Shown: piece by piece, positions 30,566-48,307 of the stretch
Numbering within the stretch: position 1 is the first letter of the stretch
Layout: each line of letters starts with the position of its first letter
Assembly: GCA_964507055.1 (NCBI GenBank)
Contig: CAZDOJ010000001.1
Coordinates: 273,313-337,312, forward strand
Length of the DNA stretch: 64,000 bases
Origin: an uncultured Gammaproteobacteria bacterium
Lineage (GTDB): Bacteria; Patescibacteriota; Microgenomatia; Levybacterales; UBA12049
Direction of reading: 5' to 3'
Translations under genes and position numbers: made by a program
Notes under the pieces: model-generated
What the model was told of the DNA's origin: nothing
Database searches by the model: none
What the model saw: the letters and a program-made list of their open reading frames with translations, nothing else

Positions 30566-30568
30566 TAC

Positions 30569-31270: not shown

Positions 31271-31364
31271 TTATTAATTATTAGATAATCTCAGCTGCGT
31301 TGTAAAGAGGGATTTTTCTTATGGTACTTATATATAAATCAGACACACTCGAGGCTAATCAAAC

Positions 31365-31393
31365 TTGACAAAAAGACTTATAGTATGTATAAT
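31365..31393 (+). promoter_or_regulatory. sigma70-type promoter with perfect consensus
   Basis: TTGACA, a 17-nt spacer, then TATAAT, immediately upstream of the VanW-like gene. Confidence 0.7.
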
Positions 31394-31428
31394 AAAACAC
31401 TATGGGATATAAAAATCTCATAGATACT

Positions 31429-33285: not shown

Positions 33286-33329
33286 AAATGTAATAATAGA
33301 GTTTCTTCACGAATAATTCAATGAACGAA

Positions 33330-33812: not shown

Positions 33813-33840
33813 TTATACTATATACAAGTAAAAGTATGAA

Positions 33841-34455
33841 TTAATAGGTTATTGAATCAGGAATAAAGATACTTTCAATCGTTTTCTTACCATCCTCGTC
33901 AGCCGTAATTTGTAAGACTTCTCCATGACGGACATATCGAAAACCTTTACCTGTGCGAATTGAATCAATTTCCAAAGGCATACCTCTGAGTACTGCTTTT
34001 ACTGTCATAAGGATATCACCGTGACTTACAGCGACAACATGTTTGCCAGAATGTTTTGTTACCACATGGTCAAGAAACTCAGTTGATCTTAAAGCCAGGT
34101 CTTCAAGTGTTTCGTCATCTTTTGCCCGTTCTGGACCGCTAAAAATATCAAATTTAATTTCCTGAAGCTTTTCTATTGGTTGTCCCATGTATGAACTTTT
34201 AACTTCTAATAAGTGATCAGAAAAGGTAATTTTAGGAAAATTCAATTCTTTTTGAATAATCTCAGCGGTTTTCTTTGCTCGAAGCAGTGGGCTTGCATAG
34301 AGTTCACTAACAGGTTTATTTTTAAGAAACTTTGCGGTCTGTGCTATCTCTTCTTCTCCTTGTTTGGTTAAACCAAATCGTGGGAGTCTACCATACCAAA
34401 CTTTATTAGGGTTTTCTACTTCGCCATGGCGAACTAAATAAATGTAGGTATTCAT
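33841..34455 (-). CDS. histidine phosphatase family protein (phosphoglycerate-mutase-like)
   Basis: Catalytic LVRHGE at the N-terminus and the SHGD motif. Confidence 0.8.
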   Translation of the reverse strand: MNTYIYLVRHGEVENPNKVWYGRLPRFGLTKQGEEEIAQTAKFLKNKPVSELYASPLLRAKKTAEIIQKELNFPKITFSDHLLEVKSSYMGQPIEKLQEIKFDIFSGPERAKDDETLEDLALRSTEFLDHVVTKHSGKHVVAVSHGDILMTVKAVLRGMPLEIDSIRTGKGFRYVRHGEVLQITADEDGKKTIESIFIPDSITY

Positions 34456-34479
34456 AAAAGAGTATTATATAATATCCAA

Positions 34480-35718: not shown

Positions 35719-35720
35719 CC

Positions 35721-35954
35721 TTAAGAGTGTGCTGTACAAGCCTTGAACTTGTGATAGGCTGATTGATTATTCTCTGCGAAACAACTTGTCACTTTCTCCA
35801 AACCGTTTTCATTTAAAGCAAGGCTTAGTGATTGCAATCCAAATAATACAAAAGTAACCATAACAATAATCAGAATACTATTCCAATAAGGCTCAAATGA
35901 TTCAACTTTGGCAGGAGCAGGATCTGGAAAGATCTGCTTTGAACTGTTGGGCAT
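35721..35954 (-). CDS. small membrane protein with a paired-cysteine C-terminal tail
   Basis: 77 aa: one TM helix, then C-x14-AC. Confidence 0.4.
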   Translation of the reverse strand: MPNSSKQIFPDPAPAKVESFEPYWNSILIIVMVTFVLFGLQSLSLALNENGLEKVTSCFAENNQSAYHKFKACTAHS

Positions 35955-36003
35955 TATATATAGTATTGAGTATTACTATAATAATTGTCAAATACTAAGG
36001 AGC

Positions 36004-36327
36004 TTAGTTGAGGATATTTTGCATAGCGTGAGCTTCAGGGACGAGATTATCAATAAAACTTACGGCTTTTGTTCTCGTCTTTAACTCTGAACAAGCAGTG
36101 AGGCTCATACTTGTCGTTTCATTGTTAAGGTTATTGCAGTTTGTAAATGTTGGAGCGTTTGCAGCAGATGCGTTTCGTACAAAACTTTGTGTCCCATATC
36201 CGAGGAAAGTTAAGACCACAATGCCAATCATTGCTGAGACATAGGGGGTAAATGAATCAGTTGCACGGTAATTTTTGTAATCCGTGTATCTTTTTATTCC
36301 TGCCATAGAATTGTGTTCATTATGCAA
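36004..36327 (-). CDS. small membrane protein with a paired-cysteine C-terminal tail (paralogue-like)
   Basis: 107 aa: one TM helix, then C ... ACS. Confidence 0.4.
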   Translation of the reverse strand: MHNEHNSMAGIKRYTDYKNYRATDSFTPYVSAMIGIVVLTFLGYGTQSFVRNASAANAPTFTNCNNLNNETTSMSLTACSELKTRTKAVSFIDNLVPEAHAMQNILN

Positions 36328-36409
36328 TGCAAAGAAGGCAATGTCAACATATTATAGTAAGTTATTACAATAGTATTGAGAGTAGGTAATTCTCTCTTGT
36401 ATAAGTAGA

Positions 36410-36841
36410 TTATTCGTCTTCGAGGTCAAAAAGTTTCAAACCAATCTCTTCATTCATTGATTTTGTAAATACTGTAGGAAGTACTTTAAGCATAACTTCC
36501 ATAGTTGCGGAAACTGTCCCGTGGACCAGATGTCCAGAATATGCATTCATATTTTCATCACCTAGGGTAATATGTGGATGCAGTAATGGCTTATTTTCAA
36601 AGAGTGCAATGTTGCCTGTAAAATTAGTAACTTCAAAGATACCATCGATTTTTTTCTCACTATATTTCTTATTATCAACTTTATAATGTGCAAGTGTAGG
36701 ATTATCTATCGAACCAAGACCAGTGAGCCAAGCGTTTTTGATCACGTGTTTCTCACAGAATGCTGTCAAAGTTGCAACAACTTCTTCTCCCCGCTCAAGC
36801 CGTAGTAAATATTTTGTCTCTGAAATCTTCCCAACTTTCAT
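36410..36841 (-). CDS. PPC/DUF296-domain protein
   Basis: 143 aa with EVTNFTGNIALFENKPLLHPHITLGDENMNAYSGHLVHGTVSATMEV, typical of the PPC domain. Confidence 0.55.
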   Translation of the reverse strand: MKVGKISETKYLLRLERGEEVVATLTAFCEKHVIKNAWLTGLGSIDNPTLAHYKVDNKKYSEKKIDGIFEVTNFTGNIALFENKPLLHPHITLGDENMNAYSGHLVHGTVSATMEVMLKVLPTVFTKSMNEEIGLKLFDLEDE

Positions 36842-37269
36842 AAATCTATTTGTATCACATTCCGATCCACAAAAAAAGCCTAAAAGATTTGTCAGGTTTC
36901 ATACAAGGATATTTAATTTCTGCATAATAATAATAATTAACTTTGCTGATAAATAATAAAAAGATGGGTCTCAAGCAAATTGTTAAATTGTATTTACTGA
37001 TGTTTACATTAGATAGTGTAAACATACGATTCATAAAAGCATTAATTCATAAAAGATCAATGTCGTGAGGTAAATTTCTCTGCTTTATATATAGCTCATA
37101 AAAAGCATGCCCTTAAAGTACTTTCATTATTTCCATAGTTATTTCTGTAGGGGTTAGCTTACTTGTATTAAAAGCGATTTGGTCTCTAAAATCAGTCTAA
37201 TGTCTATTCTCTATCTTTGGTAGAGATAAAATGTCAAATTTAAATATACATAAGTATTATATTAATATA

Positions 37270-37692
37270 CTACATTTCTTTAAATCCATACTTCCCTTTC
37301 TCTCTATACATTTCTAATGCAGCTGCATGACCCTGTAAAATATTTTTTGGAACGTCGCTTAAAGAAAACCATTCCCAACCCCTACATTTATCAGGCTCCA
37401 CAACTTTGGGAGTTCCTTTATAATTATTACTAACAAAAACGAAATGATAGTAATCATCTCTAGATTGGGTTTCGCGTATTACTCCAATATATATGAGAGA
37501 AGTTATTCTGAGACTTGTCTCTTCCAAAACTTCTCTCTTTGCACAGTCTATAATTTTTTCATCGAGTTCAAGTCCTCCGCCTGGTAATCCGTAGGAACCT
37601 TCACCATAGCTATTAATTCTTTTCCCAAGCAAAAGTCTTTTGCTACTTTTATCAATAATTATTGTACATACTCCTATCTTGCTTCTTTTCAT
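37270..37692 (-). CDS. NUDIX hydrolase
   Basis: Nudix box GGGLELDEKIIDCAKREVLEETSL. Confidence 0.85.
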   Translation of the reverse strand: MKRSKIGVCTIIIDKSSKRLLLGKRINSYGEGSYGLPGGGLELDEKIIDCAKREVLEETSLRITSLIYIGVIRETQSRDDYYHFVFVSNNYKGTPKVVEPDKCRGWEWFSLSDVPKNILQGHAAALEMYREKGKYGFKEM

Positions 37693-37755
37693 TTTTGTAC
37701 ATTATTATAATAGCATCTTATTATACTATTTACATGTACAGTATAATAAGACCTT

Positions 37756-38361
37756 ATGAAGAGCACTGTTGTTGTTGTCTGTCCTATTGCGAGTGGTAAA
37801 GGGGCAATTTCTGAACTTCTTGTTTCAAAGGGGTATACGCATTTTACCTTTAGAGATGATATCCATGCAGAACTTTTCCGTAAAGGTTTACCTGTGGATC
37901 TGGAGCACTTCTAATTAACAGCACGGTCCTTGCGAAGAGAATTCGGTCATGATATGCAAGCGAGATCTATTGCAGAAAGAATTGAACAAAAGCGGCAATT
38001 GGGAGAGTCTGAAAAAGCAGTTGTCGATGGCTTACGTCATCCCGAAGACATTTTATGGCTTAAAAAAAATCTTCGTGCAAAAATTATTGGTGTGACAGCC
38101 TCTTCTGATATACGATTCCAGAGGCTAATTACAAGAGCGAGATTCTCTGATCCTACAGCAAAGGTTTTATTTGATAATGCAGACGCTATTGATATGGGTG
38201 TAGGACAACCTCCTGAGGGTGATAATATTACTCAGTGTTTGGAACTTGCCGATACTGTCATAGAAAATGTTGGAAGTAAAGAAAGTTTACATCGAAAGGT
38301 AGAAGAATTACTTATTTCATTTGGAATTGAGGGAAATCCTCGGTATCATGAGAGATGTTAA
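37756..38361 (+). pseudogene. P-loop nucleotide-kinase-like gene (dephospho-CoA kinase/AAA_17-like) interrupted by an in-frame TAA at 37912-37914
   Basis: MKSTVVVVCPIASGKGAIS ... DLEHF, then TAA, then an in-frame continuation for 149 more codons to the stop at 38361. The ORF track's 37930 TTG start is in the same frame. Confidence 0.6.
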
Positions 38362-38427
38362 AAGTGGCTATAACTAGTAATCTATAATAATTCTTAAGCT
38401 ATCGTATCTGTTCTTTGAAATACAATA

Positions 38428-38769
38428 TTACTTTCTTCTGTTTTTGTATCTCTTTTCCAGATCATCAAACGGTTTCAAATAGAATTTCTGTACACTATAG
38501 TAAAGTAAATATCCAAATACCGCTACCATTGAGAAAACGATGACTAAGTATAATGCATAAATATTAGCATCTTTAAAGTTCTTAACCCAATCGTGAATGA
38601 TATTAGCAGTTAAGCTTAAGTAGAGTCCTAAAAATACCACAGTTATTCCAATGAGCTGAGGTAACATCTCGTATTGTCGCTTATGCAACTCCTTCTTAGT
38701 TATTTTCTGTTTTGCCATTGATGTATATCTTAGTAATAGCGTAGCACTTTTAGATAAAAAAAGCTCCAC
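38428..38769 (-). CDS. small 2-TM membrane protein, hypothetical
   Basis: 113 aa with two hydrophobic helices. Confidence 0.4.
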   Translation of the reverse strand: MELFLSKSATLLLRYTSMAKQKITKKELHKRQYEMLPQLIGITVVFLGLYLSLTANIIHDWVKNFKDANIYALYLVIVFSMVAVFGYLLYYSVQKFYLKPFDDLEKRYKNRRK

Positions 38770-38777
38770 GCAGGAGC
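38756..38777 (-). terminator. rho-independent terminator, probably the native terminator of the ancestral tRNA-Gly copy
   Basis: Hairpin GCTCC-ACGCA-GGAGC followed, on the minus strand, by TTTTTTT; it lies about 25 nt beyond the displaced tRNA-Gly 3' end at 38801. Confidence 0.55.
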
Positions 38778-38800
38778 CTTAGTTCGAATTAATTGCGGAT

Positions 38801-38839
38801 GAGTGGGCGATGGGAATCGAACCCACTACCTTCTCCTTG
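38801..38839 (-). repeat. displaced 3' half of tRNA-Gly(GCC) (attL-like core), 38/39 identical to 45447-45485
   Basis: GAGTGGGCGATGGGAATCGAACCCACTACCTTCTCCTTG matches the tRNA-Gly T-arm, acceptor 3' strand and anticodon-stem 3' strand. No D-arm or 5' half follows. Confidence 0.75.
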
Positions 38840-38873
38840 TAGGAAGGATGTTCCGCACAAGAACAATCAAAAG
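38822..38873 (+). repeat. direct repeat DR-A (52 nt), about 90% identical to 44876-44927
   Basis: CCTTCTCCTTGTAGGAAGGATGTTCCGCACAAGAACAATCAAAAGT versus CCGTCTCCTTGTATGAAGGATGTTCCGCACAGAAACTATCAAAAGT. Confidence 0.75.
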
Positions 38874-38931
38874 TCTGTAGAAAATAATAGCAAACCGTTG
38901 AAGAATTAGCAATTATTAAAGTGGTGCGAAA

Positions 38932-39456
38932 TTAGCTAATAATGGGTATTATCTTTCTCGAGATTTCTATGGGTGACAATGTACTCGTATCTAATGAGAT
39001 CTGCTCGCTAAAATCAATTCTCTCATAAGATTCAGGATATTTTTCTGTCCATTGTTGCAAACGTTCGGTTGAGCTAATTTTATTCATAGTTTTACGCGAT
39101 TCATTATTAATTCTGCTCTTTAATTCTTCCACAGAAGCAGTGAGTTGGATTAGAATACACTTTCCTTTACCCGATTCAACAACTTGTAACATTTGTCTGT
39201 AAAACGCTTCATTGTCTCTCATAATGACACCTGTAGCAATAAGATCTACATTTGCTTTTACAGCTTCTTCTACTATTCTCAAGCGAAATTCTTTTTCTAG
39301 TTTTTTTCTTGCAGGATGATCAAATCCAAATATGCCGCTTAGTGCATTCAGTATAATATGGTTGTGGAAGAGTGTAATGCCAGTAGTCTTTGCAAGTTCA
39401 TTTGAAACAGTATACTTACCCGTAGCAGGTGCACCGTAAATGAGGATAAACTTCAT
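38932..39456 (-). CDS. P-loop ATPase / nucleotide-kinase-like protein (AAA_33-like)
   Basis: Walker A motif GAPATGKYT at residues 8-16; 174 aa. Confidence 0.6.
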   Translation of the reverse strand: MKFILIYGAPATGKYTVSNELAKTTGITLFHNHIILNALSGIFGFDHPARKKLEKEFRLRIVEEAVKANVDLIATGVIMRDNEAFYRQMLQVVESGKGKCILIQLTASVEELKSRINNESRKTMNKISSTERLQQWTEKYPESYERIDFSEQISLDTSTLSPIEISRKIIPIIS

Positions 39457-39470
39457 GTATTCTGATTATA

Positions 39471-40763
39471 TCAGACTCCTTTCTGTTTGTTTTTGAATTG
39501 AAACTCAAATTCTCTATCAGGTCTTACAAGTGTAAATCTTAATTTCGGTATTGGATCGTTCAGACATGAAATATCATCTGTACTTTCAAGTAGCGCTGGC
39601 ACATATTCTTTATGTATAGCTTGAGTTAAATGCTTGCCAAAGCATCTTCTTAGTCCAGGACTAAATTGAAGGTCATAATTACTTCGCTGGCTTGAGGTAG
39701 GATCGTCTTGGTCAGGAAATGTAAATAATGGAACTGCTAAGAGAGAATCAACGGGCATTACACCTGTAGAAATTTCCCAGGGCTGAGTGGTTCTACGCAA
39801 AATAAAAGTTGATGTTGGATTTTTAGCTGCTGATCTTTCTAGAAACTGTCTGCATAAAGCTGGAAAATCTTCAGTTCCTAATGCACTTCGTAGTTGCTCC
39901 TGACTTGTTTTATCTTTGGCCAAATTGTATGTAATCCATTCCAATGATGTTGCAAGTTCACCTTGTCCTGTAATTGTTCCTCTAAAAGTTTCCATAACTT
40001 GATCCTCTGCTTGTGTATCCAGTACCTGTGTAAGCACCCCTTCTGTTCCCTGATCGACTGCTCTTGTGACTACTTGATCTAATACATCTGTGTATGGTTC
40101 TATTCTTTTCTCTGCAAAGCGTCTTATTGAACCAATATTGCCCGTTTTAAAAACAAGTAATGGACTAGTTATATAGTAACTGTTAAAGCTATCAATAATT
40201 TTGTCAGCCTCCTCAACAGGTAAGTGCTGTCCAAGGTATGTACCGAGAATTGCTCGTGCTGCAAATCTTCTAAATAGCCGAGAAGAGGGGACATCGCCAT
40301 GTGCTAATTCTTCTGTTAATCTTTCTGTTGCAGTTCCTACAGCATCTTCTACAATAGCTTCATGTATCTTTAGATTTCTAGGTGAAACTGAGGGTGAAAG
40401 TTCAGCACGTGCATCCCTCCATTCCTCAAGTGTTGAGTTATCTTGTATAACTCCGCCTTGAGTAGCAATCATAAATCTTTTTTCTCCTGCAGGCATGACC
40501 ACTCCTTCAAAATCCGTCATGAGTACTTTTTTCGCGAGGGTTCTTGAAGTTACAAGGTATGATTGCCGAAAACCTGGAACGGAGATAGGAAGTCTCATTA
40601 AATCTGCTTGTTCTCCTACTTCTTCAACCAGTTGCTTCCATGGTTCAAGTTTCAGTGTCCTTGGAAATTGAGGATTTGATTGACCAAGATGTAGTATGCT
40701 TTTCGTTATTTCGTAAGTACTGGGCGTATAAACTTCTGGTGCATTTTGTCTTTCTGTAGCCAT
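39471..40763 (-). CDS. cytochrome P450
   Basis: Heme-binding loop FSPGLRRCFGKHL (FxxGxRxCxG) and the ETFRG (ExxR) motif. The ORF extends to 40838, but the MATERQ start at 40763 avoids overlap with the divergent PLD gene. Confidence 0.8.
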   Translation of the reverse strand: MATERQNAPEVYTPSTYEITKSILHLGQSNPQFPRTLKLEPWKQLVEEVGEQADLMRLPISVPGFRQSYLVTSRTLAKKVLMTDFEGVVMPAGEKRFMIATQGGVIQDNSTLEEWRDARAELSPSVSPRNLKIHEAIVEDAVGTATERLTEELAHGDVPSSRLFRRFAARAILGTYLGQHLPVEEADKIIDSFNSYYITSPLLVFKTGNIGSIRRFAEKRIEPYTDVLDQVVTRAVDQGTEGVLTQVLDTQAEDQVMETFRGTITGQGELATSLEWITYNLAKDKTSQEQLRSALGTEDFPALCRQFLERSAAKNPTSTFILRRTTQPWEISTGVMPVDSLLAVPLFTFPDQDDPTSSQRSNYDLQFSPGLRRCFGKHLTQAIHKEYVPALLESTDDISCLNDPIPKLRFTLVRPDREFEFQFKNKQKGV

Positions 40764-40839
40764 AACTGGAACAGAATTATACCATAGGATATAGCAAGTG
40801 TTGCTATATCCTACAGAATTTTTTATAATCCCTTTCATG

Positions 40840-41994
40840 GAAAGGCCTCAATTAAGAAAAGATATTCCTCTATCGGAGAGAGGTGTTACACAAGGATCTG
40901 AAGTTACTCTCTTAAATGATGTGCAGTATAAAGATCAACTCAGACTTCTTATCCCTCAAGCAAAAAAAAGAGTTTGGATACAAACAATGACTTTTGATGG
41001 GAATGGCAACTTTCCTGAGTTTCAAGCTTTGTTTGGAGAAACGGCAGAAAGAGGTATTGATACACGATTTACGGTAGACGCTTTCTACAGAATGCATTTA
41101 GCCGATTCTCTTTATTACCAACCTCATTTATCAAGACGCAGGCGAGAAGAAGTACGTGATTCAAAAAAAGGCAAAGAAAATGCATTAGCTGAACTTGAAG
41201 AACGTGGTGTGCAAGTTATTGAAACAAATCCTCCAAGAGGTGTCTTAGAAAAACTTAACCCTGCACGAGGAAGAAACCATAGAAAAATGGCGGTTATCGA
41301 TGATGTTGTATTTGTTGGAGATCAACATCATTTCGTAGAACATAGCCAACCTGGAACGATGACACGTGTAACTGATCCCTTACTTGTCGATGGGCTTGCA
41401 GATATTTATGAATCAGCTAGTAAAGGGCCTGGTGGTGAGGATTACGAATTAGCTGGTTCTGGTTATACTGCTCTTCTTGTAGATGCAGGTGTTCCTGGAA
41501 GGTCACTTATTATGAAACGTGCCAAAGCTGCGATAGAAGGTGCACAACGAAGTGTGGTTATGACAAACCAACATACTTCTGATGGTGAATTAGTAATGGC
41601 AATGCAGGCAGTGCAAGATAGCGGAGCTTCTGGAAAGATGATTGTTGGTGATCCAAATTTATTAGATTTTCCTTTATCTTGGATGTTTGATACGAAGAGT
41701 CAGTTGCAGTCAAGAAGAGATGGCATAACTATCCCCACATACGAAAATCCTGTATGGATACACTCTAATTTACTTTTAGTAGATGAAGGTCTTCCTTCCG
41801 CGCAAGTCTTTATGGGTACACGATGTTATTCAGATATGATTACGAATTGGGGGTCTCAAGAGGTTGCCTTACAATCCACAAACACTGAATTCGTGGGTCA
41901 GGTGGGAGCTCAATTGCGTAGATTAGAAGATGAGTCAAGATTGCGAAAACCAGACAGAACAGTACGAGAAATTGTATTTAGCAGAGGTGCCTAA
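40840..41994 (+). CDS. phospholipase-D-superfamily protein (one canonical and one degenerate HKD motif)
   Basis: NHRKMAVIDD matches HxKx4D. The second copy, WIHSNLLLVDE, has N in place of K. The start is taken at MERPQLRK. Confidence 0.7.
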   Translation, partial: ERPQLRKDIPLSERGVTQGSEVTLLNDVQYKDQLRLLIPQAKKRVWIQTMTFDGNGNFPEFQALFGETAERGIDTRFTVDAFYRMHLADSLYYQPHLSRRRREEVRDSKKGKENALAELEERGVQVIETNPPRGVLEKLNPARGRNHRKMAVIDDVVFVGDQHHFVEHSQPGTMTRVTDPLLVDGLADIYESASKGPGGEDYELAGSGYTALLVDAGVPGRSLIMKRAKAAIEGAQRSVVMTNQHTSDGELVMAMQAVQDSGASGKMIVGDPNLLDFPLSWMFDTKSQLQSRRDGITIPTYENPVWIHSNLLLVDEGLPSAQVFMGTRCYSDMITNWGSQEVALQSTNTEFVGQVGAQLRRLEDESRLRKPDRTVREIVFSRGA

Positions 41995-42018
41995 TCAAAT
42001 TTTTGCTATAATTGTAGG

Positions 42019-42813
42019 ATGAGTAAGACAAAACAACTAAAAATAAGTTCCTCAATTACTGATTTTGCGCCATTATTTCTCGATTTGGAATACATGTTTA
42101 AAGGCCTCAAGAATGCAGGTGTTGATGGTGTAGAACTTGTGGTTGGTTTAAAATCACGTTGGTCAGTTGATAGAATAAAACATCTTTCAAAGAAATATAA
42201 GCTACCAGTTACGAGTATTCATCAGCCTGTATGGGGTGGATTGGGATTATCTTTTGATGAAGGGTTTTTCGATATAGCAAAACAGCTCGCTGTTAAGAAA
42301 GTGGTTTGTCATCCAATTCCAAGGTACTCACTCAAAGAAAAACCAATGCAGGATTATCTCAAAAGACTTTCTCGTATAAAAAAGAACACTGGAATCGACA
42401 TTCTCTTGGAAAATCTTTCTCCAAATTATGATAATAAGCTTGTGGATCCTTTTTTCCCGCTGGGTAAGGATACTGGAAATATGCAAGAAATATACTCCGC
42501 AGCTAGAGAACATAATCTTAATGTAACCTTAGATATTGATCATCTTTCAAAAGAAAAGCCGCATAAAGAAAAATGGATGAAGGAAATAGTACCTTATATT
42601 GGCAATGTACATTTAAGTAGCTTTACATCAACTGAGCATCATATGCCTTTATACATGGGAAACTTTAAAGCGAAAGAGTTTATTCAGTACCTAGAGAAAC
42701 AGAATTATAAAGGATTACTAACATTTGAGATTTACTATCCTAGCTTTCTCAAGCCCTTTGGATATGATTTTGATGCAATAAGAAAATCAGTCCAACTTCT
42801 TAAGCAAAACTAG
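42019..42813 (+). CDS. xylose-isomerase-like TIM-barrel protein (paralogue of 27145-27930)
   Basis: Motifs shared with the paralogue: DFAPLF, KSRWS, HQPVW, DEGFF, VVCHP, LENL, TLDIDHL, HKEKW, IGNxHLSSF and YKGLLTFEI. Confidence 0.6.
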   Translation: MSKTKQLKISSSITDFAPLFLDLEYMFKGLKNAGVDGVELVVGLKSRWSVDRIKHLSKKYKLPVTSIHQPVWGGLGLSFDEGFFDIAKQLAVKKVVCHPIPRYSLKEKPMQDYLKRLSRIKKNTGIDILLENLSPNYDNKLVDPFFPLGKDTGNMQEIYSAAREHNLNVTLDIDHLSKEKPHKEKWMKEIVPYIGNVHLSSFTSTEHHMPLYMGNFKAKEFIQYLEKQNYKGLLTFEIYYPSFLKPFGYDFDAIRKSVQLLKQN

Positions 42814-42878
42814 CTGTCAATTTAATTGACATTACCCTCATTGCAATCTCAACACTTTTTTTTTAAAATGACCCCACT

Positions 42879-44141
42879 ATGTTTGACGTTGCTAAATTCC
42901 GACAACTGTTCCCAGCATTAAAAGAAAATGAAAGTAAGAAACCTCCCATCTTTCTTGATGCAGTAGGAGGCACCCAAGTGCCACAGACCGTTATTGACGC
43001 TGTTACAGATCACTTAATTACCAAAAATGGTAATAAAGGTGGAGTATTTCCTACAAGCGTAAAAACAGATGAAATGATGGAGGAGACTCGGAAAATTGTA
43101 GCAGAATTTATTAACGCTCCAGATTCGAATGAAATCATATTTGGCCCAAACTTTACTACTTTAACATTCAGTATTAGTCGTTCATTGGCAAAAACATGGG
43201 AAAAGGGTGATGAAATTATCCTTAGCCGACTTGATCATGATGCAAATGTTTCCCCATGGGTACTTGCCGCTGAAGATACAGGTGTAGTTGTCCGATACAT
43301 GGATATTGACGATAATACATGCCAAATAAATTTAGACAGCTACAAAAACGTGCTTTCAGAAAAGACAAAACTCGTTGCCTTCTGTGCGGCATCAAGTTCT
43401 GTTGGTACTAGAACTGATGTAAAAACAATAGCAAGAATGGCACATGAAGTAGGTGCTTTGGTTTATGTCGATGCAGTTGCATATGCACCTCACGATTCGA
43501 TAGATGTACAAGAATGGGAAGCTGACTTTGTTGGTTGCTCTAGTTATAAATTCTTTGGTCCTCACGTTGGACTATTGTGGGGGAAAAGGCAGTATCTTGA
43601 AGCGCTCCCTGCTTATAAAATACGGCCTGCACCTAATGAAATTCCTGTAAAATGGATGAACGGTGCGCAATCATTTGAAATTGTTACTGGAGCAAAAGCG
43701 GCAATTGAATATCTTGCTTATGTAGGTAAAGAAAATCCATCTTTTAGAGATTACTATCCTCAGTTTACAGGGAGACAACTAGACATTCATGCTGGTATGT
43801 CCGCAATAGCAGAATATGAGTCTTCACTAACATGGAGGTTTATTAAGGAAATTAAAAAGCGTCCACGGTATACACTGTGGGGAGTAAGTGAAGAAAAGGA
43901 CAAAATGTGGAGAGTACCAACGATTGCAATCTCATTGGGAAATGAACAGTCAGATAAGATTGCTAAATATCTCGCAGAAAATAATATATACATTTGGAGT
44001 AGAAGTGTTTACTCTATCTCATTATCTGAACGATTAGGGCTTGAGAAGACAGGTGGATTTATACGTGTAGGATTTGCCCATTACAATACAAATGAAGAAG
44101 TAGATACTTTGCTTGAAAAACTAGACCAGTATCAGGTTTAA
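42879..44141 (+). CDS. class-V aminotransferase / cysteine-desulfurase-like PLP enzyme
   Basis: PLP-lysine motif GCSSYKFFGPHVG in a typical fold-type I layout; 420 aa. Confidence 0.75.
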   Translation: MFDVAKFRQLFPALKENESKKPPIFLDAVGGTQVPQTVIDAVTDHLITKNGNKGGVFPTSVKTDEMMEETRKIVAEFINAPDSNEIIFGPNFTTLTFSISRSLAKTWEKGDEIILSRLDHDANVSPWVLAAEDTGVVVRYMDIDDNTCQINLDSYKNVLSEKTKLVAFCAASSSVGTRTDVKTIARMAHEVGALVYVDAVAYAPHDSIDVQEWEADFVGCSSYKFFGPHVGLLWGKRQYLEALPAYKIRPAPNEIPVKWMNGAQSFEIVTGAKAAIEYLAYVGKENPSFRDYYPQFTGRQLDIHAGMSAIAEYESSLTWRFIKEIKKRPRYTLWGVSEEKDKMWRVPTIAISLGNEQSDKIAKYLAENNIYIWSRSVYSISLSERLGLEKTGGFIRVGFAHYNTNEEVDTLLEKLDQYQV

Positions 44142-44174
44142 ACTTTCTCAACTTCTTATTGGCATCTCCCCCAG

Positions 44175-44819
44175 CTATAATTTCTGAATCATCGCTATAC
44201 TTACATGTTTCAATGAGGAAACAATTTTAGTAGCTGGATAGTCGCCCTTGATGTCTGCTACAAGGCCAATAGACTTCATATTAGCTGCGGTAGCTCCAAT
44301 CATGCCACTTCGGCCGTCTTCAATAACAATAGCCTCTTCAGGTCGAACTCCAAGCCGTTTTGCTGCAAGAAGAAATATATCAGGCGCAGGTTTACCATGT
44401 GTTACTTCATATGATGATACAAGGGTATCAAAATACTTTCTGATATTGAGTGCATCCATAACTTCATCTATAAAGTCTTTGGTTGATGCTGATGCTATTG
44501 CAAGTTTGAACCTGTTATTCTTGAGTTCTTTTATCAAAGCTATTGCATAAGGGATCGCAGTAAGCCTTCCTTTTGTAACTTTTTCCATGAGCTCCCATTT
44601 CTTATACAGAATATCAGGGGTCGAATACTCAGTCACTCCATGCTTCTCAAAAATCTCTGCAAACATCTTTTCATCAGGAACGCCAGCATATACGGCAGAA
44701 ATTTCTTCAGGTTTCATGGCAATCCCATATTCCTTTAAGAGCATGCTTTCAATCTCCCCATGAAAACTTTGAGTATCAGATACGACACCGTCCATATCAA
44801 AGATCACAGCTTTTATCAT
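44175..44819 (-). CDS. HAD-family hydrolase (beta-phosphoglucomutase-like subfamily)
   Basis: Motif I VIFDMDGVV, with motif III/IV K ... EDGRSG. Confidence 0.8.
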   Translation of the reverse strand: MIKAVIFDMDGVVSDTQSFHGEIESMLLKEYGIAMKPEEISAVYAGVPDEKMFAEIFEKHGVTEYSTPDILYKKWELMEKVTKGRLTAIPYAIALIKELKNNRFKLAIASASTKDFIDEVMDALNIRKYFDTLVSSYEVTHGKPAPDIFLLAAKRLGVRPEEAIVIEDGRSGMIGATAANMKSIGLVADIKGDYPATKIVSSLKHVSIAMIQKL

Positions 44820-44875
44820 TAACAGATTATAACAAAGTTATGGTGTATTTTAATGGAGTTGGAAGAAGAATGGTG

Positions 44876-44927
44876 ATAAAATCCGTCTCCTTGTATGAAG
44901 GATGTTCCGCACAGAAACTATCAAAAG
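44876..44927 (+). repeat. direct repeat DR-B (52 nt), copy of 38822-38873
   Basis: See DR-A. It is located 49 nt downstream of the truncated integrase ORF. Confidence 0.75.
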
Positions 44928-44975
44928 TTAGTGTAATGCTAGCAATAAATCCGTAGAAATCCTGTGGACAATAGC

Positions 44976-45302
44976 TTATACCCAATGTGATCTATCATAA
45001 AAATGTTCTTTTATGTGCATACGTAACGACTCTATATCACGATCATAAAGAAAAGCTATAAATGCTCGTAGGTTTTTAATAATGTTTACTTTGCTGTGGG
45101 GTTTAGTCCAACCATTGGCATACATATGCAACGCATATTGCCTACAACTATCAAGTGTAAATGGCTTACCATTTAGGAATGGCAATAACTTATCAAGAAT
45201 ATCTTTCTTGTTACGAACAGTTTTGGGGCTAAGACCCTTTTCTGCAGAATAATTGATTATAAAATCGTCGTAAGCGTGCTGAAGTGATTTTCCCTGCAAC
45301 AT
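44976..45302 (-). pseudogene. tyrosine-recombinase (phage integrase) N-terminal SAM-like/core-binding domain only; the catalytic domain is missing
   Basis: 108 aa: LSPKTVRNKKDILDKLLPFL ... FTLDSCRQYALHMYANGWTKPHSKVNIIKNLRAFIAFLYDRDI is a typical XerC/D-type N-domain. No RHRY catalytic domain follows, and the tRNA-Gly gene lies 146 nt upstream. Confidence 0.55.
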
Positions 45303-45448
45303 AAGAACTCCTTTTGAGTTCTCGCACGTAGGGTTTCCCTATCTTTATTATCTTTCCTGTTTTAGGATACGCAAGCGGGGTAACTATTTTGTTACACTCG
45401 GGGCAGAAAATGTGTTCAACTAATTACCCGATTAGAGTATCTTAGTAT

Positions 45449-45520
45449 GAGCGGGCGATGGGAATCGAACCCACTACCTTCTCCTTGGCAAGGAGACGTT
45501 CTACCGATGAACTACGCCCG
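45449..45520 (-). tRNA. tRNA-Gly (anticodon GCC)
   Basis: GCGGGCGTAGTTCATCGGTAGAACGTCTCCTTGCCAAGGAGAAGGTAGTGGGTTCGATTCCCATCGCCCGCT, with a U discriminator base. Confidence 0.9.
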
Positions 45521-45574
45521 CAATATAGTGAATTATACCAAAATCCCCTTTTTTCCTCAACTCATCATAAAATA

Positions 45575-46996
45575 TCAGACTTTATCAAAAGATTTAAGGT
45601 CTCCCCATTCCTTCCCTACTTTCACATCAACTGTCGTTGGGACGGAGAGTGGATAGACAGATGTCATCACATTTTGGATTTCTTTGATGATGTCGGATTC
45701 AAGTTTCTCATCTGGTATTTCAAAAACTAAATCGTCGTGAATCGTCAAGAGTAATGCGACTTCAGGATGTTTGGTAAGGATTTCATTATGCACATCCACC
45801 ATAACCTTCTTCATAAAGTCCGCTGCTGTTCCTTGGATTGGATAGTTCATCAGAACTCTTCGCATACTATTATCGATGAACTTTCTTTTGGGATCTTCAA
45901 AGACATATCTTCTTCGTCCGAGGATTGTTTCGACAGTCCCGTGAATCTTGGCATGTTTTAAATACATATCATAGAAATTTCGGATATTTGGATAAGATGC
46001 ATAAAATTGTTTGATGAATTGATCTGCTGCTTCTTGTGGGATATTGAGTCCGGCACTCATGCCGTAACTACTCATACCATAGATGATACCGAAGTTAATC
46101 GTCTTTCCAATATGTCTTTGTTCTTTGGTTACTTCGTCATAATCCGTCGTAAACAATTTGCTCGCAGTCAGTGTGTGCACATCTTGCCCATCTGCAAAGG
46201 CTTTAATGAGTGCTTTTTCATCAGACAAATGAGCAAGGATTCTCAATTCCTGTTGAGAATAATCAAATGACACAAATGTATGATCAGGTTTTGCAATAAA
46301 ACATGATTTAATAGCTTGTCCCATTTCTGATGTCACCGGGATGTTCTGGAGATTTGGATTTAATGACGCAAGTCGACCAGTATTGACCATGACTTGATTG
46401 TAGGTCGTGTGTATCAATCCGTCTTCGCTGACTTTTTGGATCAGGCTTTCGACGTACGTCGAGCGGAGTTTACTCAATTCCCGATGTTTCAATAAATTAT
46501 GAATGATATCAAATTGGTCTGCAAATTTTGAAAGCTCTGCTTCATTGGTTGCGTACTTTCCTGTTTTGGTCAAACTCAATGGAACTCCCATTTTCTCAGC
46601 AAGAAATGTCCCTAGTTGTAGCGGCGATTTGAGATTGATTCCTCCACCTGTTTCCTTGGCAATATCTTCTTCAAGTTCGACTAATAAACTATCAATTTTT
46701 TCTCCAACCGATTGTAGTTTCTTCACATCCAAAATGATTCCATGCTTTTCCATCCCACGGAGTACTTTTGCCAGTGGCAACTCGATTTCAAAATAAAGCT
46801 TTTCAAGTTTGGGGAGTTCTTTTAATGCGACTTGTTGTTTCTTTGCGAGTTCATCAAGGGTTTTGGCATCGTATTTTTTTAGGGTCTCTTCTTTACTTTT
46901 TAATCCATAACCTTCAAGTAAAAGTGCTTCAGCGATGTAGCAATCAAAGACATCATCAAATTCTTCTGCGGATTTACAATCCCATATTGCTTTCAT
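45575..46996 (-). CDS. polA: DNA polymerase I, polymerase (family A) domain only (473 aa)
   Basis: Motif A DYSQQELR, motif B RHIGKTINFGIIYG and motif C TIHDDLVFE. No 5'-3' exonuclease domain is encoded upstream. Confidence 0.9.
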   Translation of the reverse strand: MKAIWDCKSAEEFDDVFDCYIAEALLLEGYGLKSKEETLKKYDAKTLDELAKKQQVALKELPKLEKLYFEIELPLAKVLRGMEKHGIILDVKKLQSVGEKIDSLLVELEEDIAKETGGGINLKSPLQLGTFLAEKMGVPLSLTKTGKYATNEAELSKFADQFDIIHNLLKHRELSKLRSTYVESLIQKVSEDGLIHTTYNQVMVNTGRLASLNPNLQNIPVTSEMGQAIKSCFIAKPDHTFVSFDYSQQELRILAHLSDEKALIKAFADGQDVHTLTASKLFTTDYDEVTKEQRHIGKTINFGIIYGMSSYGMSAGLNIPQEAADQFIKQFYASYPNIRNFYDMYLKHAKIHGTVETILGRRRYVFEDPKRKFIDNSMRRVLMNYPIQGTAADFMKKVMVDVHNEILTKHPEVALLLTIHDDLVFEIPDEKLESDIIKEIQNVMTSVYPLSVPTTVDVKVGKEWGDLKSFDKV

Positions 46997-47117
46997 TGGG
47001 ATTATTATACTCTTTTATAGTGAGATTGCTACATCACTTCGTTCTTCGTAAAGACAAGGAATTTTCTTACCAAACTCTGCATTGAATTGCTTCGTAAGAA
47101 TTGGTATTGTTTAACTA

Positions 47118-47534
47118 GTGAATTTTCTATTTTATCTCAAACTTTTTGTTGCTTCACTTATCGTTTTCCTCGGTGTAGATTTTGTTTGGCTAAGCTTTGT
47201 TGCTACGACCTTTTATAAAGAGCAAATTGGCTTCCTTCTTTCGACCCAACCAAATGTTGCAGCAGCTGGTGTTTTCTATGCGATTTATGTCGCAGGACTG
47301 CTTTACTTTGTTGTGCTTCCTGCACTTAAAGTGAAGAACAGTCATGCAGGAATTGTAGGATTTGCGGGAGCGTTCTTTGGATTTGTTGCATATGCAACCT
47401 ATGAACTTACTAATTTTGCTACAGTAGCGAATTGGCCTTTCCAACTTGTGATCGTTGATCTGATCTGGGGTACTGTCCTTTCAGCAGTAACTGCTTGGGC
47501 TGCATTTATGATCGGGAGAAAATTACTCTCATGA
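47118..47534 (+). CDS. polytopic membrane protein (DUF2177-like)
   Basis: 138 aa with four hydrophobic segments. Confidence 0.45.
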   Translation: MNFLFYLKLFVASLIVFLGVDFVWLSFVATTFYKEQIGFLLSTQPNVAAAGVFYAIYVAGLLYFVVLPALKVKNSHAGIVGFAGAFFGFVAYATYELTNFATVANWPFQLVIVDLIWGTVLSAVTAWAAFMIGRKLLS

Positions 47535-48307
47535 CATTCTTCACAATATTTGGTTTCACTACTCTTATTGTCTTAGTCTTTATGACTTTGGCTTTTGGTA
47601 TTTCCATACTTCGTAAAAGAAATGACTTTGCAGACATTGCTTGGGGGTTAGGTTTTATTGTCGTCGCTGTATCGACATTATTTTTGAGCGGAACATATTA
47701 TGAGAAACAATTACTTGTAACTGCTTTGGTTGCATTGTGGGGTTTGCGATTATCCGGGCATATTTATCTTCGTAATCGTGGCCGTAAGGAAGATCATCGA
47801 TATGAAGATATGAAAAAGAAATGGAAAGGTAATTTCTACGTCCAATCCTATCTCAATGTTTTCTTGACACAGGGTTTACTCATGTTATTAATTAGTATTC
47901 CTGTGATTTTTATCAACTCCAGCTCCGACGCTGGTTTTCAGTTATTGGATGGCTTGGCTGTGATTATCTGGTTCATCGGATTCTACTTTGAAGCAAATGG
48001 TGATTATGAACTTTCAGAATTTGTCAAAAATCCTGATAATAAAGGTCATGTGATGCAAGATGGGTTATGGAAATATACCCGTCATCCAAATTATTTTGGA
48101 GAAGTGACACAGTGGTGGGGAATTTTTCTGATTGCTGTGAGTTTGCCAAACGGTGTATTTACAATTATTGGACCGTTGGTTATTACTATTTTGATAACAA
48201 AAGTTTCAGGTATTCCTCTTCTTGAGAAGAAATATGCAGGACGTCCTGAGTGGGAAGATTATAAAAGAAGAACAAGTATATTTTTCCCAATGCCTCCAAA
48301 GAAATAA
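47495..48307 (+). CDS. DUF1295 / steroid-5-alpha-reductase-like membrane protein
   Basis: C-terminal YTRHPNYFGE ... WWG signature. Confidence 0.6.
   Translation: MGCIYDREKITLMTFFTIFGFTTLIVLVFMTLAFGISILRKRNDFADIAWGLGFIVVAVSTLFLSGTYYEKQLLVTALVALWGLRLSGHIYLRNRGRKEDHRYEDMKKKWKGNFYVQSYLNVFLTQGLLMLLISIPVIFINSSSDAGFQLLDGLAVIIWFIGFYFEANGDYELSEFVKNPDNKGHVMQDGLWKYTRHPNYFGEVTQWWGIFLIAVSLPNGVFTIIGPLVITILITKVSGIPLLEKKYAGRPEWEDYKRRTSIFFPMPPKK

What the first reader, a model, noticed from the sequence alone, without database searches (positions are those of the whole stretch)
38756..45520. A degenerate integrative island at tRNA-Gly with the displaced tRNA 3' half, 52-nt direct repeats and an integrase stump
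The intact tRNA-Gly(GCC) gene is at 45449-45520 on the minus strand. Its 3' 39 nt recur at 38801-38839 (38 of 39 identical), 6.6 kb away. There they are followed by a hairpin terminator at 38756-38777, as expected for the original chromosomal tRNA 3' end pushed aside by integration into the tRNA gene. Inside the element, 146 nt from the intact tRNA, is a 108-aa ORF. It is the N-terminal SAM-like/core-binding domain of a tyrosine recombinase with no catalytic domain, that is, an integrase remnant. A second 52-nt repeat (44876-44927) matches the sequence at the left junction (38822-38873) at about 90% identity, suggesting either tandem serial integrations or arm-type site duplication. The cargo is metabolic rather than phage-like: a cytochrome P450, a PLD-family HKD protein, a TIM-barrel protein, a class-V aminotransferase/desulfurase, a HAD phosphatase and a P-loop ATPase.
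Basis: partly seen in the sequence, partly recalled or inferred. Interest (0 to 1): 0.7.

Follow-up and report, generated by a model that had tools for sequence, protein, structure and literature searches.

The report
Decayed gene island in tRNA-Gly
A 6.6-kb block of six metabolic genes was inserted into a glycine tRNA gene of a small-genome, probably Candidate Phyla Radiation (CPR) bacterium by a site-specific integrase that has since been destroyed by a deletion; this is an ordinary kind of mobile island, clearly documented here.

Summary

- **Boundaries.** tRNA-Gly(GCC) lies at 45449-45521 (-). Its last 39 nt plus 2 nt recur at 38799-38839 (40/41 identical), followed by a terminator.
- **Insertion.** A related genome (core DNA about 77% identical) has the same PolA-tRNA-Gly(GCC) site with syntenic flanks, a terminator, and none of the island genes.
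- **Intact counterpart.** That relative carries the same six-gene module (77% nt identity), but behind tRNA-Gly(CCC). There it belongs to an 18.5-kb element with an intact 335-aa tyrosine integrase, 74% identical to the window's stump. It ends in the same arm plus a displaced tRNA 3' half.
- **The stump.** The 108-aa ORF is a fusion. Integrase codons 1-90 are joined at 45033, by a clean deletion of about 10.4 kb, to the last 18 codons of an AlbA_2-like gene.
- **The integrase family.** In metagenomes, intact members sit directly downstream of tRNA-Gly(GCC) in six of ten loci.
- **The second repeat.** It is 46 nt at 89%, not 52 nt. It is a second copy of a conserved element-end arm, which favours tandem accretion.
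- **Weaker points.** Base composition shows no foreign signal. One public contig shows an empty site, but it may be an assembly artefact.

Verdict: a new member of a known kind, of modest interest.

The parts
45449..45521 (-). Intact tRNA-Gly(GCC). Its 5' part (nt 1-34) is chromosomal. Its 3' part (nt 35-73) is supplied by the island, forming attL.
   Evidence: ARAGORN; Rfam RF00005, 69.1 bits; identical to the tRNA-Gly next to an intact integrase in L035.
45447..45487 (-). attL copy of the 41-nt direct repeat (tRNA nt 35-73 plus 2 nt). Its inner edge lies inside the anticodon.
   Evidence: D3.
45303..45446 (-). Integrase-proximal arm of the element, 144 nt, between the tRNA and the integrase start codon.
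   Evidence: Aligns, with gaps, to the corresponding arm of the relative's element (L044 3869-3975).
45033..45302 (-). Remnant of the tyrosine integrase: codons 1-90, the N-terminal SAM-like/core-binding domain only. No catalytic domain is present.
   Evidence: HMMER against 1.8 billion proteins gave 44 hits, full-length ones about 335-340 aa. Those carry PF00589. The stump is 74% identical to the relative's 335-aa integrase. tblastn finds no catalytic remnant anywhere in the 64-kb window.
44948..45033 (-). Tail of an AlbA_2/SLFN-like gene fused in frame to integrase codon 90. It supplies ORF residues 91-108 and the stop at 44976. The deletion junction is at 45033.
   Evidence: blastn: window 45523->45033 = L044 3794-4246 and window 45033->44948 = L044 14673-14760. 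So about 10.4 kb of the relative's element is missing. tblastn of residues 91-108 is 83% identical to the end of the AlbA_2 gene.
44883..44928 (-). R2': an internal second copy of the element-end arm plus 11 nt of the tRNA core (CAAGGAGACGG). It lies in a 110-nt segment (44838-44947) that has no counterpart in the relative.
   Evidence: D2. The arm motif ACTTTTGA-N9/10-GTGCGGAACAT recurs in L029 and L042. The relative has 774 nt (a 42-aa ORF plus DUF2726) at this position.
44826..44853 (-). Promoter-like site (TTAAAA-16-TGnTATAAT) in front of the HAD gene, at the left edge of the conserved module.
   Evidence: Homology with the relative resumes at 44837. This is a consensus match only.
44175..44819 (-). 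Cargo gene 1: HAD-family phosphatase, beta-phosphoglucomutase-like.
   Evidence: Pfam HAD_2 E 1.5e-33; TIGR02009 144 bits; 76% aa identity to the relative.
42879..44141 (+). Cargo gene 2: class-V PLP enzyme, cysteine desulfurase-like (TIGR01976 family).
   Evidence: Pfam Aminotran_5 E 1e-64; TIGR01976 433 bits against a cut-off of 352; best PDB match is the aminotransferase-like protein FGM3; 86% aa identity to the relative.
42019..42813 (+). Cargo gene 3: xylose-isomerase-like TIM-barrel protein.
   Evidence: Pfam AP_endonuc_2 E 6e-17; weak partial CbiR similarity; 88% aa identity to the relative.
40837..41994 (+). Cargo gene 4: PLD-like protein with one HxKxxxxD motif.
   Evidence: Pfam PLDc_2 E 3e-9; 90% aa identity to the relative.
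39471..40763 (-). Cargo gene 5: divergent P450-like protein.
   Evidence: Pfam p450 23.5 bits, cut-off 22.8; invariant FSPGLRRCxG motif; no PDB sequence match; 79% aa identity to the relative.
38932..39456 (-). Cargo gene 6: small P-loop kinase-like protein.
   Evidence: Weak AAA_18/KTI12/SKI hits; 66% aa identity to the relative.
38840..38912 (-). R2: the distal arm of the element (the attP-derived half of attR). It looks like a diverged tRNA-Gly 5' half.
   Evidence: 85% identical over 113 nt (including the tRNA fragment) to the end of the relative's element (L029 12706-12818). The motif is shared with R2' and L042.
38799..38839 (-). Displaced original 3' half of tRNA-Gly(GCC), forming attR. 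It has one change, G to A, at the base that pairs with C2.
   Evidence: D3. It is GCC-type, not CCC-type.
38753..38780 (-). Intrinsic-terminator-like hairpin plus T-run: the original tRNA terminator, now behind the displaced fragment.
   Evidence: An analogous hairpin (gctcc...ggagcttttttt) follows tRNA-Gly(GCC) in the relative.
38428..38718 (-). First chromosomal gene beyond the island: a 96-aa membrane protein. It is context, not part of the island.
   Evidence: Contig L024 joins it directly to an uninterrupted tRNA-Gly and PolA.

Best explanation
The interval 38799-45487 is a decayed, composite integrative island. It sits in the 3' half of the tRNA-Gly(GCC) gene of a small-genome (about 1.3 Mb) bacterium, probably of the Levybacteria/CPR group.

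Mechanism (inferred from the anatomy). A circular element carried a tyrosine integrase and an attP site. The attP held a copy of tRNA-Gly nucleotides 35-73. The element recombined with the chromosomal tRNA gene in the anticodon loop. Its own copy rebuilt the tRNA (attL). The original 3' half, with its terminator, was pushed 6.6 kb away (attR).

Later events (shown by comparison with an intact relative). A clean deletion of about 10.4 kb fused integrase codon 90 to the last 18 codons of an AlbA_2-like gene. It removed the catalytic domain and all accessory genes. What remains is a conserved six-gene module: HAD phosphatase, cysteine-desulfurase-like PLP enzyme, TIM-barrel protein, PLD-like protein, P450-like protein and a small kinase.

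The internal 46-nt repeat (R2'). It is a second copy of the conserved element-end arm with only 11 nt of the tRNA core. The most likely reading is that the island is two accreted units: a remnant unit at 44883-45446 and the module unit at 38840-44882. The junction between them has been eroded.

Current state. The island keeps both att sites but has no recombinase. On its own it is immobile, like a cis-mobilizable element (CIME). It could move only with an integrase supplied in trans. The biochemical role of the module is unknown. The enzyme set suggests modification of a phosphorylated or amino-acid-derived small molecule.
For: Shown:
- 41-nt co-oriented repeat, 40/41 identical, bounded inside the anticodon, with 0 expected by chance.
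- Terminator behind the displaced half, matching the terminator behind the uninterrupted tRNA in the relative.
- The relative's PolA-tRNA-Gly(GCC) locus is collinear on both sides and lacks all island genes.
- The same six genes, in the same order, at 77% nt identity over 5851 nt, lie at another locus of that relative. There they end in a homologous arm plus a tRNA-Gly 3' half.
- That array begins with tRNA-Gly(CCC) and an intact 335-aa PF00589 integrase, 74% identical to the stump.
- The deletion junction maps to a single base position, 45033.
- No catalytic-domain remnant exists in the window.
- Full-length family members have the R..K..HxxR..H..Y residues.
- Intact 333-344-aa members lie 42-121 nt downstream of, and co-oriented with, tRNA-Gly(GCC) in L035, L036, L038, L039, L040. 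The cut-off ORF in L041 (203 aa readable) sits the same way.
- The arm motif is conserved in four copies across three sources: the window, L029 and L042.
- In the relative, the middle att site is followed by a second, decayed integrase, so tandem arrays do form in this element family.

Established knowledge: the tRNA-plus-displaced-fragment principle, anticodon-centred attP sites and tandem arrays (Islander, PMC4383910); CIMEs and accretion (PMC5704250).
Against: - There is no compositional signal. The module is no more diverged between the two genomes than core genes are. Acquisition is therefore ancient or from within the lineage, and its direction cannot be told.
- The internal R2' site has only 11 nt of the tRNA core and no integrase follows it. 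The two-unit reading therefore needs at least one further deletion.
- The relative has different sequence (a 42-aa ORF plus DUF2726) at that position, so the ancestral state there is not resolved.
- No circular form or attP junction was seen.
- The only 'empty-site' contig (L024) comes from a k=31 graph assembly across a 35-nt exact repeat. It may be chimeric.
- Recombination in the anticodon loop is inferred from the repeat boundary. It was not demonstrated.
Confidence: 0.85

Rival explanations
1. A single element rather than two accreted ones. R2' would be an internal duplicate of the attP arm, for example an extra integrase- or accessory-protein-binding site, or the product of a local duplication. 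The whole 6.6 kb would descend from one integration event.
For: - The relative's 18.5-kb element carries integrase, accessory genes and the module as one unit between one tRNA and one arm plus 3' half, with no R2'-like site between AlbA_2 and HAD.
- No integrase remnant follows R2' in the window.
Against: - R2' includes 11 nt of the tRNA core in register with the arm, exactly as at a true attR.
- Arm-type sites of tyrosine integrases are usually about 10-nt motifs, not a 46-nt copy of the core-adjacent arm (general knowledge).
- Tandem arrays with a decayed integrase after the middle att site do occur in this family.
Confidence: 0.2
2. The island is still mobile. It would be excised precisely from some cells, either by a related integrase encoded elsewhere in the genome (trans-mobilization of a CIME-like island) or by homologous recombination between the 41-nt repeats.
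For: - Contig L024 (Logan, SRR14271354, 942 nt) reads PolA, then an uninterrupted tRNA-Gly carrying the attR-type A variant, then the flank and the 96-aa gene. It is 100% identical to the window on both sides.
- The island end is present on another contig in the same sample (L006).
Against: - The exact shared stretch (35 nt) is longer than the assembler's k (31), so no k-mer spans the join.
- Contigs in that sample are short, indicating low coverage.
- L006 stops 8 nt short of the repeat, so junction k-mers were missing and a chimeric path is possible.
- In the other runs examined, the contigs break exactly at the repeat.
- No attP junction contig was found.
- No second integrase lies in the 64-kb window.
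Confidence: 0.25
3. The 38799-38874 segment is an independent tRNA-Gly pseudogene or a local duplication, and the six genes are native chromosomal genes. No integration took place.
For: - The R2 arm resembles a diverged tRNA-Gly 5' half, so arm plus fragment looks like a full-length pseudo-tRNA (sequence inspection).
- There is no compositional anomaly.
Against: - Identity drops sharply from 40/41 to about 60% at the anticodon.
- The relative's identical locus lacks all six genes.
- The relative carries the six genes behind a different tRNA-Gly, with an intact integrase and the same arm plus fragment.
- An integrase remnant sits where expected.
Confidence: 0.03
4. The array reached its present site by homologous recombination between the two tRNA-Gly paralogues (GCC and CCC), that is, by a chromosomal rearrangement rather than integrase-mediated insertion.
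For: - The same element lineage sits at tRNA-Gly(GCC) in the window and at tRNA-Gly(CCC) in the relative.
- The two 3' halves are about 90% identical.
Against: - Both flanks of the window island are collinear with the relative's tRNA-Gly(GCC) locus, so this is a simple insertion, not a flank swap.
- Both tRNA 3' halves in the window are GCC-type, and all three in the relative's array are CCC-type.
Confidence: 0.05

Closest known systems
tRNA-gene-integrated genomic islands as defined by Islander (Hudson, Lau & Williams, PMC4383910; Williams 2002, cited therein), anticodon-centred attP class
   Same: - A regenerated tRNA gene plus a co-oriented displaced 3' fragment mark the two ends.
- The integrase gene lies next to the tRNA.
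- The identity block starts in the anticodon loop and runs past the 3' end.
- Tandem arrays form at the same tRNA.
   Different: - The integrase is reduced to 90 codons, so Islander's integrase filter would reject the island.
- The host is an uncultured small-genome (CPR-like) bacterium.
- The integrase N-terminal domain is below Pfam thresholds.
- Related elements of one lineage use two different tRNA-Gly isoacceptor genes.
CIMEs (cis-mobilizable elements) and tandem accretion of ICEs/IMEs in Streptococcus (Pavlovic 2004 and Bellanger 2011, as reviewed in PMC5704250)
   Same: - The element has lost its recombination genes but keeps attL and attR.
[quoted passage not shown]
   Different: - No conjugation or mobilization genes are present.
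- The internal site is eroded to arm plus 11 nt.
- Cis- or trans-mobilization has not been shown.
Tandem genomic islands at the tmRNA gene ssrA of Dehalococcoides (PMC3146451)
   Same: Metabolic cargo is carried by integrase-associated islands that stack at one small-RNA gene in a small-genome, uncultured-type bacterium. Direct repeats of the gene's 3' end separate the units.
   Different: - The target is tRNA-Gly, not ssrA.
- The cargo is unrelated.
- The integrase here is destroyed.

Membership tests
tRNA-integrated genomic island (Islander criteria) | Intact tRNA gene plus a fragment of the same tRNA in the same orientation in the same replicon | tested here: met
   41-nt repeat, 40/41 identical, both copies on the minus strand, 6648 nt apart.
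tRNA-integrated genomic island (Islander criteria) | An integrase gene inside the interval, next to the tRNA | tested here: not met
   Only codons 1-90 remain and there is no catalytic domain. The remnant is in the canonical position, 146 nt from the tRNA and co-oriented with it.
tRNA-integrated genomic island (Islander criteria) | The interval is absent from the same site in a related genome | tested here: met
   L007 and L008: tRNA-Gly(GCC) is followed by a terminator and none of the island genes; the flanks are collinear.
tRNA-integrated genomic island (Islander criteria) | Foreign base composition (supportive, not required) | tested here: not met
   GC 0.378 vs 0.382; tetranucleotide z = 0.09.
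Tyrosine recombinase / phage integrase (PF00589) | Catalytic domain with the R-K-H-R-H-Y residues | tested here: not met
   Absent from the window ORF and from all six reading frames of the window. Present in full-length homologues.
Tyrosine recombinase / phage integrase (PF00589) | N-terminal SAM-like/core-binding domain homologous to that of bona fide integrases | tested here: met
   E 1e-29 to a 338-aa PF00589 protein; 74% identity over 89 aa to the relative's 335-aa integrase. The Pfam SAM_1 hit alone is sub-threshold.
CIME / accreted composite island | attL and attR retained, recombination module lost | tested here: met
CIME / accreted composite island | An internal hybrid att site separating two units | tested here: inconclusive
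   R2' is the arm plus only 11 nt of the core; no full 3' half and no second integrase remnant is present. A clear example exists in the relative.
CIME / accreted composite island | Excision or mobilization when a cognate integrase is supplied | not testable with these tools
   The only evidence is the ambiguous contig L024.
Prophage | Phage structural, replication or lysis genes | tested here: not met
   No PHROGs structural hits for any island protein. The relative's longer element has only a 145-aa capsid-domain fragment.
Anti-phage defence island | Proteins of a known defence system | tested here: not met
   PADLOC gives only generic cysteine-desulfurase similarity to DndA/SspA, without their partner proteins. 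The relative's element does carry PycTM/cyclase and Mrr genes, but these lie in the stretch deleted from the window.

The most novel reading that the evidence does not exclude
The arm-plus-core sites (R2-type) may be working recombination sites of a family of tRNA-Gly-anchored elements in these small-genome (CPR-like) bacteria. Integrase-less gene modules would then be captured, stacked and released in trans, in a CIME-like or integron-like way. On this reading the window's six-gene module is still exchanged or excised in the natural population (contig L024), moving a rare P450-containing metabolic module between tRNA-Gly(GCC) and tRNA-Gly(CCC) sites.
Probability: 0.15. Interest if true: 0.55.

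Novelty: new member of a known kind. Interest (0 to 1): 0.32.

Why it matters
Integrative islands at tRNA genes are textbook biology, so the main value here is descriptive.

- **A well-resolved example in an uncultured lineage.** The case combines an empty site, an intact counterpart and a decayed copy, in a lineage where mobile elements are poorly catalogued.
- **A newly delimited integrase family.** Members are about 335 aa and associate with tRNA-Gly. Their N-terminal domain falls below Pfam thresholds. Their attP arm motif is conserved and can be used to find more such islands.
- **A portable gene module.** Six genes, including a divergent P450-like protein, travel together in these reduced genomes. 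This is a lead for accessory metabolism in organisms thought to have very little.
- **An annotation lesson.** The 108-aa 'integrase' ORF is a chimera created by a deletion.

Tried and rejected
- **Word-indexed protein search with the stump.** It found only the stump itself. The exhaustive HMMER search was needed.
- **Viral contig scans.** A 17-mer from R2 gave 2 chance hits in high-GC contigs. A degenerate R2 pattern gave 0 hits. The integrase alignment gave no relatives. There is thus no sign that the element is a known virus.
- **Wide integrase alignment (A1).** It was too diverse for locus finding. The narrower A2 worked.
- **Closest full-length integrase by the global search (P0002, L026).** It has no tRNA nearby, so it was not informative about the target.
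- **Composition analysis.** No signal.
- **Structure prediction of the P450-like protein.** With only 7 sequences it failed (pLDDT 39.5), so no fold search was run.
- **PDB sequence searches.** Nothing for the P450-like, PLD-like and TIM-barrel proteins.
- **Circular (attP) junction.** Contigs carrying the kinase gene were checked. All break at the repeat, as a k=31 graph must.
- **Contig L001.** Its length of 6673 nt first looked like a possible circle. It is exactly the unitig expected between the repeat copies (38810-45482).
- **Further tRNA-Gly fragments.** None in the variable stretch 36852-38798.
- **Look-up of a protein from locus L029.** This was circumvented with the last homologue search.

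Full report
**1. The observation**

ARAGORN finds one tRNA-Gly(GCC) at 45449-45521 on the minus strand. Rfam confirms it at 69.1 bits.

The repeat finder reports a 41-nt direct repeat, 38799-38839 vs 45447-45487, 40/41 identical (D3). It covers tRNA nucleotides 35-73 plus two bases beyond the gene. Its inner edge falls between the second and third anticodon bases. A 22-nt core of the repeat occurs exactly twice in the window, against 0 in 100 shuffles.

The single difference (45452 C vs 38804 T on the + strand) is at the base that pairs with C2 of the acceptor stem. The intact gene has the Watson-Crick G. The displaced copy has A.

A terminator-like hairpin with a T-run follows the displaced copy on the minus strand (38780-38760).

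The second repeat exists but is 46 nt, not 52: 38829-38874 vs 44883-44928, 89% identical (D2). It too is unique to these two places.

The exception is the 'P450', which is marginal at 23.5 bits against a cut-off of 22.8.

**2. It is an insertion**

A scan of species-representative genomes with the adjacent PolA found two informative relatives:
- OZ246394.1, a 1.61-Mb complete assembly with PolA 89% identical (locus L007);
- a Candidatus Levyibacteriota assembly at 79% (L008).

In both, PolA is followed by tRNA-Gly(GCC) and then immediately by a terminator hairpin. In L007 the hairpin reads gctccgagaggagcttttttt. In the window the hairpin behind the displaced half reads gctcctgcgtggagcttttttt.

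None of the six cargo genes is present in those loci. At the DNA level the window is collinear with L007 on both sides: 29601-36851 and 45448-48302. Only 36852-45447 differs, 8.6 kb against 0.86 kb in L007. The 6.6-kb island lies within that stretch.

So the island is a simple insertion into a conserved locus. The 1.9 kb between the displaced half and the next shared gene is also variable among relatives.

**3. The integrase remnant**

The word-indexed search found nothing but the ORF itself. An exhaustive HMMER search of 1.8 billion representatives gave 44 hits. Residues 1-90 align to the N-termini of proteins of about 335-340 aa. These carry PF00589 and the usual catalytic R, K, HxxR, H and Y residues. 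tblastn with six of them finds only residues 1-95 in the window and no catalytic remnant anywhere in the 64 kb.

In a metagenome scan, intact ORFs of 333-344 aa lie 42-121 nt downstream of, and co-oriented with, tRNA-Gly(GCC) in L035, L036, L038, L039 and L040. L041 has the same arrangement, but its ORF is cut off by the contig end after 203 aa. One locus (L034) uses tRNA-Glu. The tRNA in L035 is identical to the window's. This is a tRNA-Gly-associated integrase family. It was not found in the viral collection.

**4. The intact counterpart**

The closest homologue of the P450-like protein (79%) is encoded in the same relative genome, OZ246394.1, about 350 kb from its empty tRNA-Gly(GCC) site. 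All six cargo genes are there in the same order and orientation, 77.0% identical over 5851 nt (window 44837-39011 = L029 5967-11740).

After one extra gene (an alpha/beta hydrolase) comes a segment 85% identical to window 38912-38800. That segment is the R2 arm plus a tRNA-Gly 3' half.

The array begins upstream with tRNA-Gly(CCC), followed 107 nt later by an intact 335-aa integrase. That integrase is 74% identical to the window stump over residues 1-89. After the integrase come these genes:
- PycTM and cyclase-like genes;
- a LexA-like gene;
- Mrr;
- a capsid-domain fragment;
- a resolvase;
- an AlbA_2/SLFN-like gene;
- a 42-aa ORF;
- DUF2726;
- then the six-gene module.

This element is about 18.5 kb.

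blastn maps the relationship exactly. Window 45523-45033 corresponds to L044 3794-4246. Window 45033-44948 corresponds to L044 14673-14760. The window therefore has a clean deletion of about 10.4 kb with its junction at 45033. The last 18 residues of the '108-aa integrase' are the C-terminal tail of the AlbA_2-like protein (83% identical). The stump ORF is a deletion chimera.

**5. The second repeat**

Read on the minus strand, both copies share ACTTTTGA-N9/10-GTGCGGAACATCCTTC-N-TA-CAAGGAGA. The same arm motif precedes the displaced 3' halves in L029 and in metagenome locus L042. It is thus a conserved part of the element's attP, next to the crossover region. It also resembles a diverged D-arm and anticodon stem of tRNA-Gly.

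At 44883-44928 the arm is followed by only 11 nt of the tRNA core (CAAGGAGACGG), then by unrelated sequence and the HAD promoter-like site. The relative has 774 nt (the 42-aa ORF plus DUF2726) in place of the window's 110-nt segment 44838-44947.

In the relative, the middle att site is followed by a second integrase gene reduced to its first 10 codons plus a C-terminal fragment. Then come three genes and a third arm plus 3' half. Tandem arrays with decaying integrases are therefore a feature of this element family.

The most economical reading is that the window island is likewise two accreted units whose junction has been eroded. A single-unit origin with an internal arm duplicate is not excluded.

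**6. Age and direction**

The island shows no compositional deviation: GC 0.378 vs 0.382, tetranucleotide z = 0.09. The module differs from the relative's copy (77.0%) exactly as much as core genes differ (76.8-78.0%). So the element lineage has been in these bacteria about as long as the two species have been separate, or it moves only among close kin.

Both 3' halves in the window are GCC-type. All three in the relative's array are CCC-type. Each element therefore carries an attP matched to its own target. Together with the collinear flanks, this argues against a rearrangement between tRNA paralogues.

**7. Is it still mobile?**

All public short-read contigs of this strain are 100% identical to the window. 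Apart from those of run SRR14271354 (L006 and L024, discussed next), they break exactly at the repeat, as a k=31 graph must. The 6673-nt contig L001 is precisely the unitig between the repeat copies, not a circle.

One 942-nt contig (L024, SRR14271354) reads straight from PolA through an uninterrupted tRNA-Gly, carrying the attR-type A variant, into the terminator and the 96-aa gene. This is what precise excision would produce. However, the exact shared stretch (35 nt) exceeds k. The sample's contigs are short, and the island contig from the same run stops 8 nt short of the repeat. A chimeric path cannot be excluded. I treat this as a lead (probability about 0.25), not a result.

**8. Cargo**

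- The PLP enzyme is a confident member of TIGR01976, 'cysteine desulfurase-like' (433 bits).
- The HAD protein is beta-phosphoglucomutase-like.
- The TIM barrel has weak similarity to the phosphodiesterase CbiR.
- The PLD-like protein has one HxKxxxxD motif.
- The P450-like protein has an invariant FSPGLRRCxG, a candidate haem-thiolate loop. It has no solved relative by sequence.
- A 59%-identical homologue of the P450-like protein lies in a different cluster, with PEP mutase, Ldh_2, a TIM barrel and a methyltransferase (L033). This hints at phosphonate-type chemistry but was not pursued.
- No phage structural or defence-system signatures were found.

The function remains unknown. I suggest modification of a phosphorylated or amino-acid-derived small molecule, with low confidence.

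**9. Comparison with what is known, and verdict**

The anatomy matches the Islander definition of tRNA-integrated islands with anticodon-centred attP, including tandem arrays (PMC4383910). Its present integrase-less state with both att sites matches CIMEs and the accretion-and-decay model (PMC5704250). Stacked metabolic islands at ssrA in Dehalococcoides are a close analogue in another small-genome lineage (PMC3146451).

This is a new member of a known kind. Interest is modest (0.32). It rests mainly on the host lineage, the newly delimited integrase family and attP arm, and the portable P450-containing module.

Noticed in passing
window 37756-38361 (+): Two adjacent ORFs (52 aa and 143 aa) together resemble the N-terminal kinase-like part of anti-phage dCTP deaminase / PRK08356 (NCBIfam E 1e-9; PADLOC dCTPase E 2e-10). 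This looks like a gene split by a stop or frameshift. It lies in the variable 1.9 kb just outside the island.
   Followed up: partly
window 36852-38798 vs L007 12227-13090 and L008 9169-10092: The stretch between the tRNA-Gly terminator and the conserved PCC-domain gene holds different genes in each of three related genomes: a 96-aa membrane protein, the split kinase-like gene and a Nudix gene here; 180-aa and 90-aa proteins in L007; a 230-aa protein in L008. It is a variable hot spot, with no further tRNA fragments detected.
   Followed up: partly
L044 5123-8667 (relative genome OZ246394.1): The intact counterpart element carries PycTM plus two guanylate-cyclase-like genes (Pycsar-like), a LexA-like repressor and an Mrr-type nuclease. 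These defence-type genes lie exactly in the stretch deleted from the window's island.
   Followed up: no
L029 12929-13200; protein P0005: Integrases of this family are repeatedly found with large internal deletions that keep the first codons and the C-terminal tail: the L029 remnant, and the 134-aa P0005, which is an in-frame N-terminus plus C-terminus. Many HMMER hits are 76-221 aa. Some of these may simply be contig-edge fragments.
   Followed up: no
L039 100-123 and 693-716: In a metagenome contig with a 43%-identical intact integrase, two R2-type arm plus partial-core copies flank a single small gene. They sit upstream of the tRNA-Gly and in the opposite orientation to it. This cassette-like arrangement is unexplained.
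   Followed up: partly
L033 2014-7646: A 59%-identical homologue of the P450-like protein sits in a cluster with PEP mutase, Ldh_2, an AP_endonuc_2 TIM barrel and a methyltransferase. This is a possible phosphonate pathway and a lead for the function of the P450-like/TIM-barrel pair.
   Followed up: no
L007 / L029 / L044 record title (OZ246394.1): The record is titled 'uncultured Gammaproteobacteria bacterium'. Yet its PolA is 89% identical to the window's, and the window's PolA is also 79% identical to that of a Candidatus Levyibacteriota assembly. The genome is 1.6 Mb with about 38% GC. The label looks wrong.
   Followed up: no
L035 1368-1453: The element with an intact integrase next to tRNA-Gly(GCC) in this soil metagenome contig carries its own 86-nt tRNA-Arg(TCT)-like gene about 200 nt after the integrase.
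   Followed up: no
Logan runs SRR14271353-SRR14271372 (L003, L021, L025 vs L032): The window's strain and the relative species (OZ246394.1) occur in the same sequencing-run series. They co-occur in at least one run (SRR14271359), so the decayed and intact versions of the element coexist in one community.
   Followed up: no
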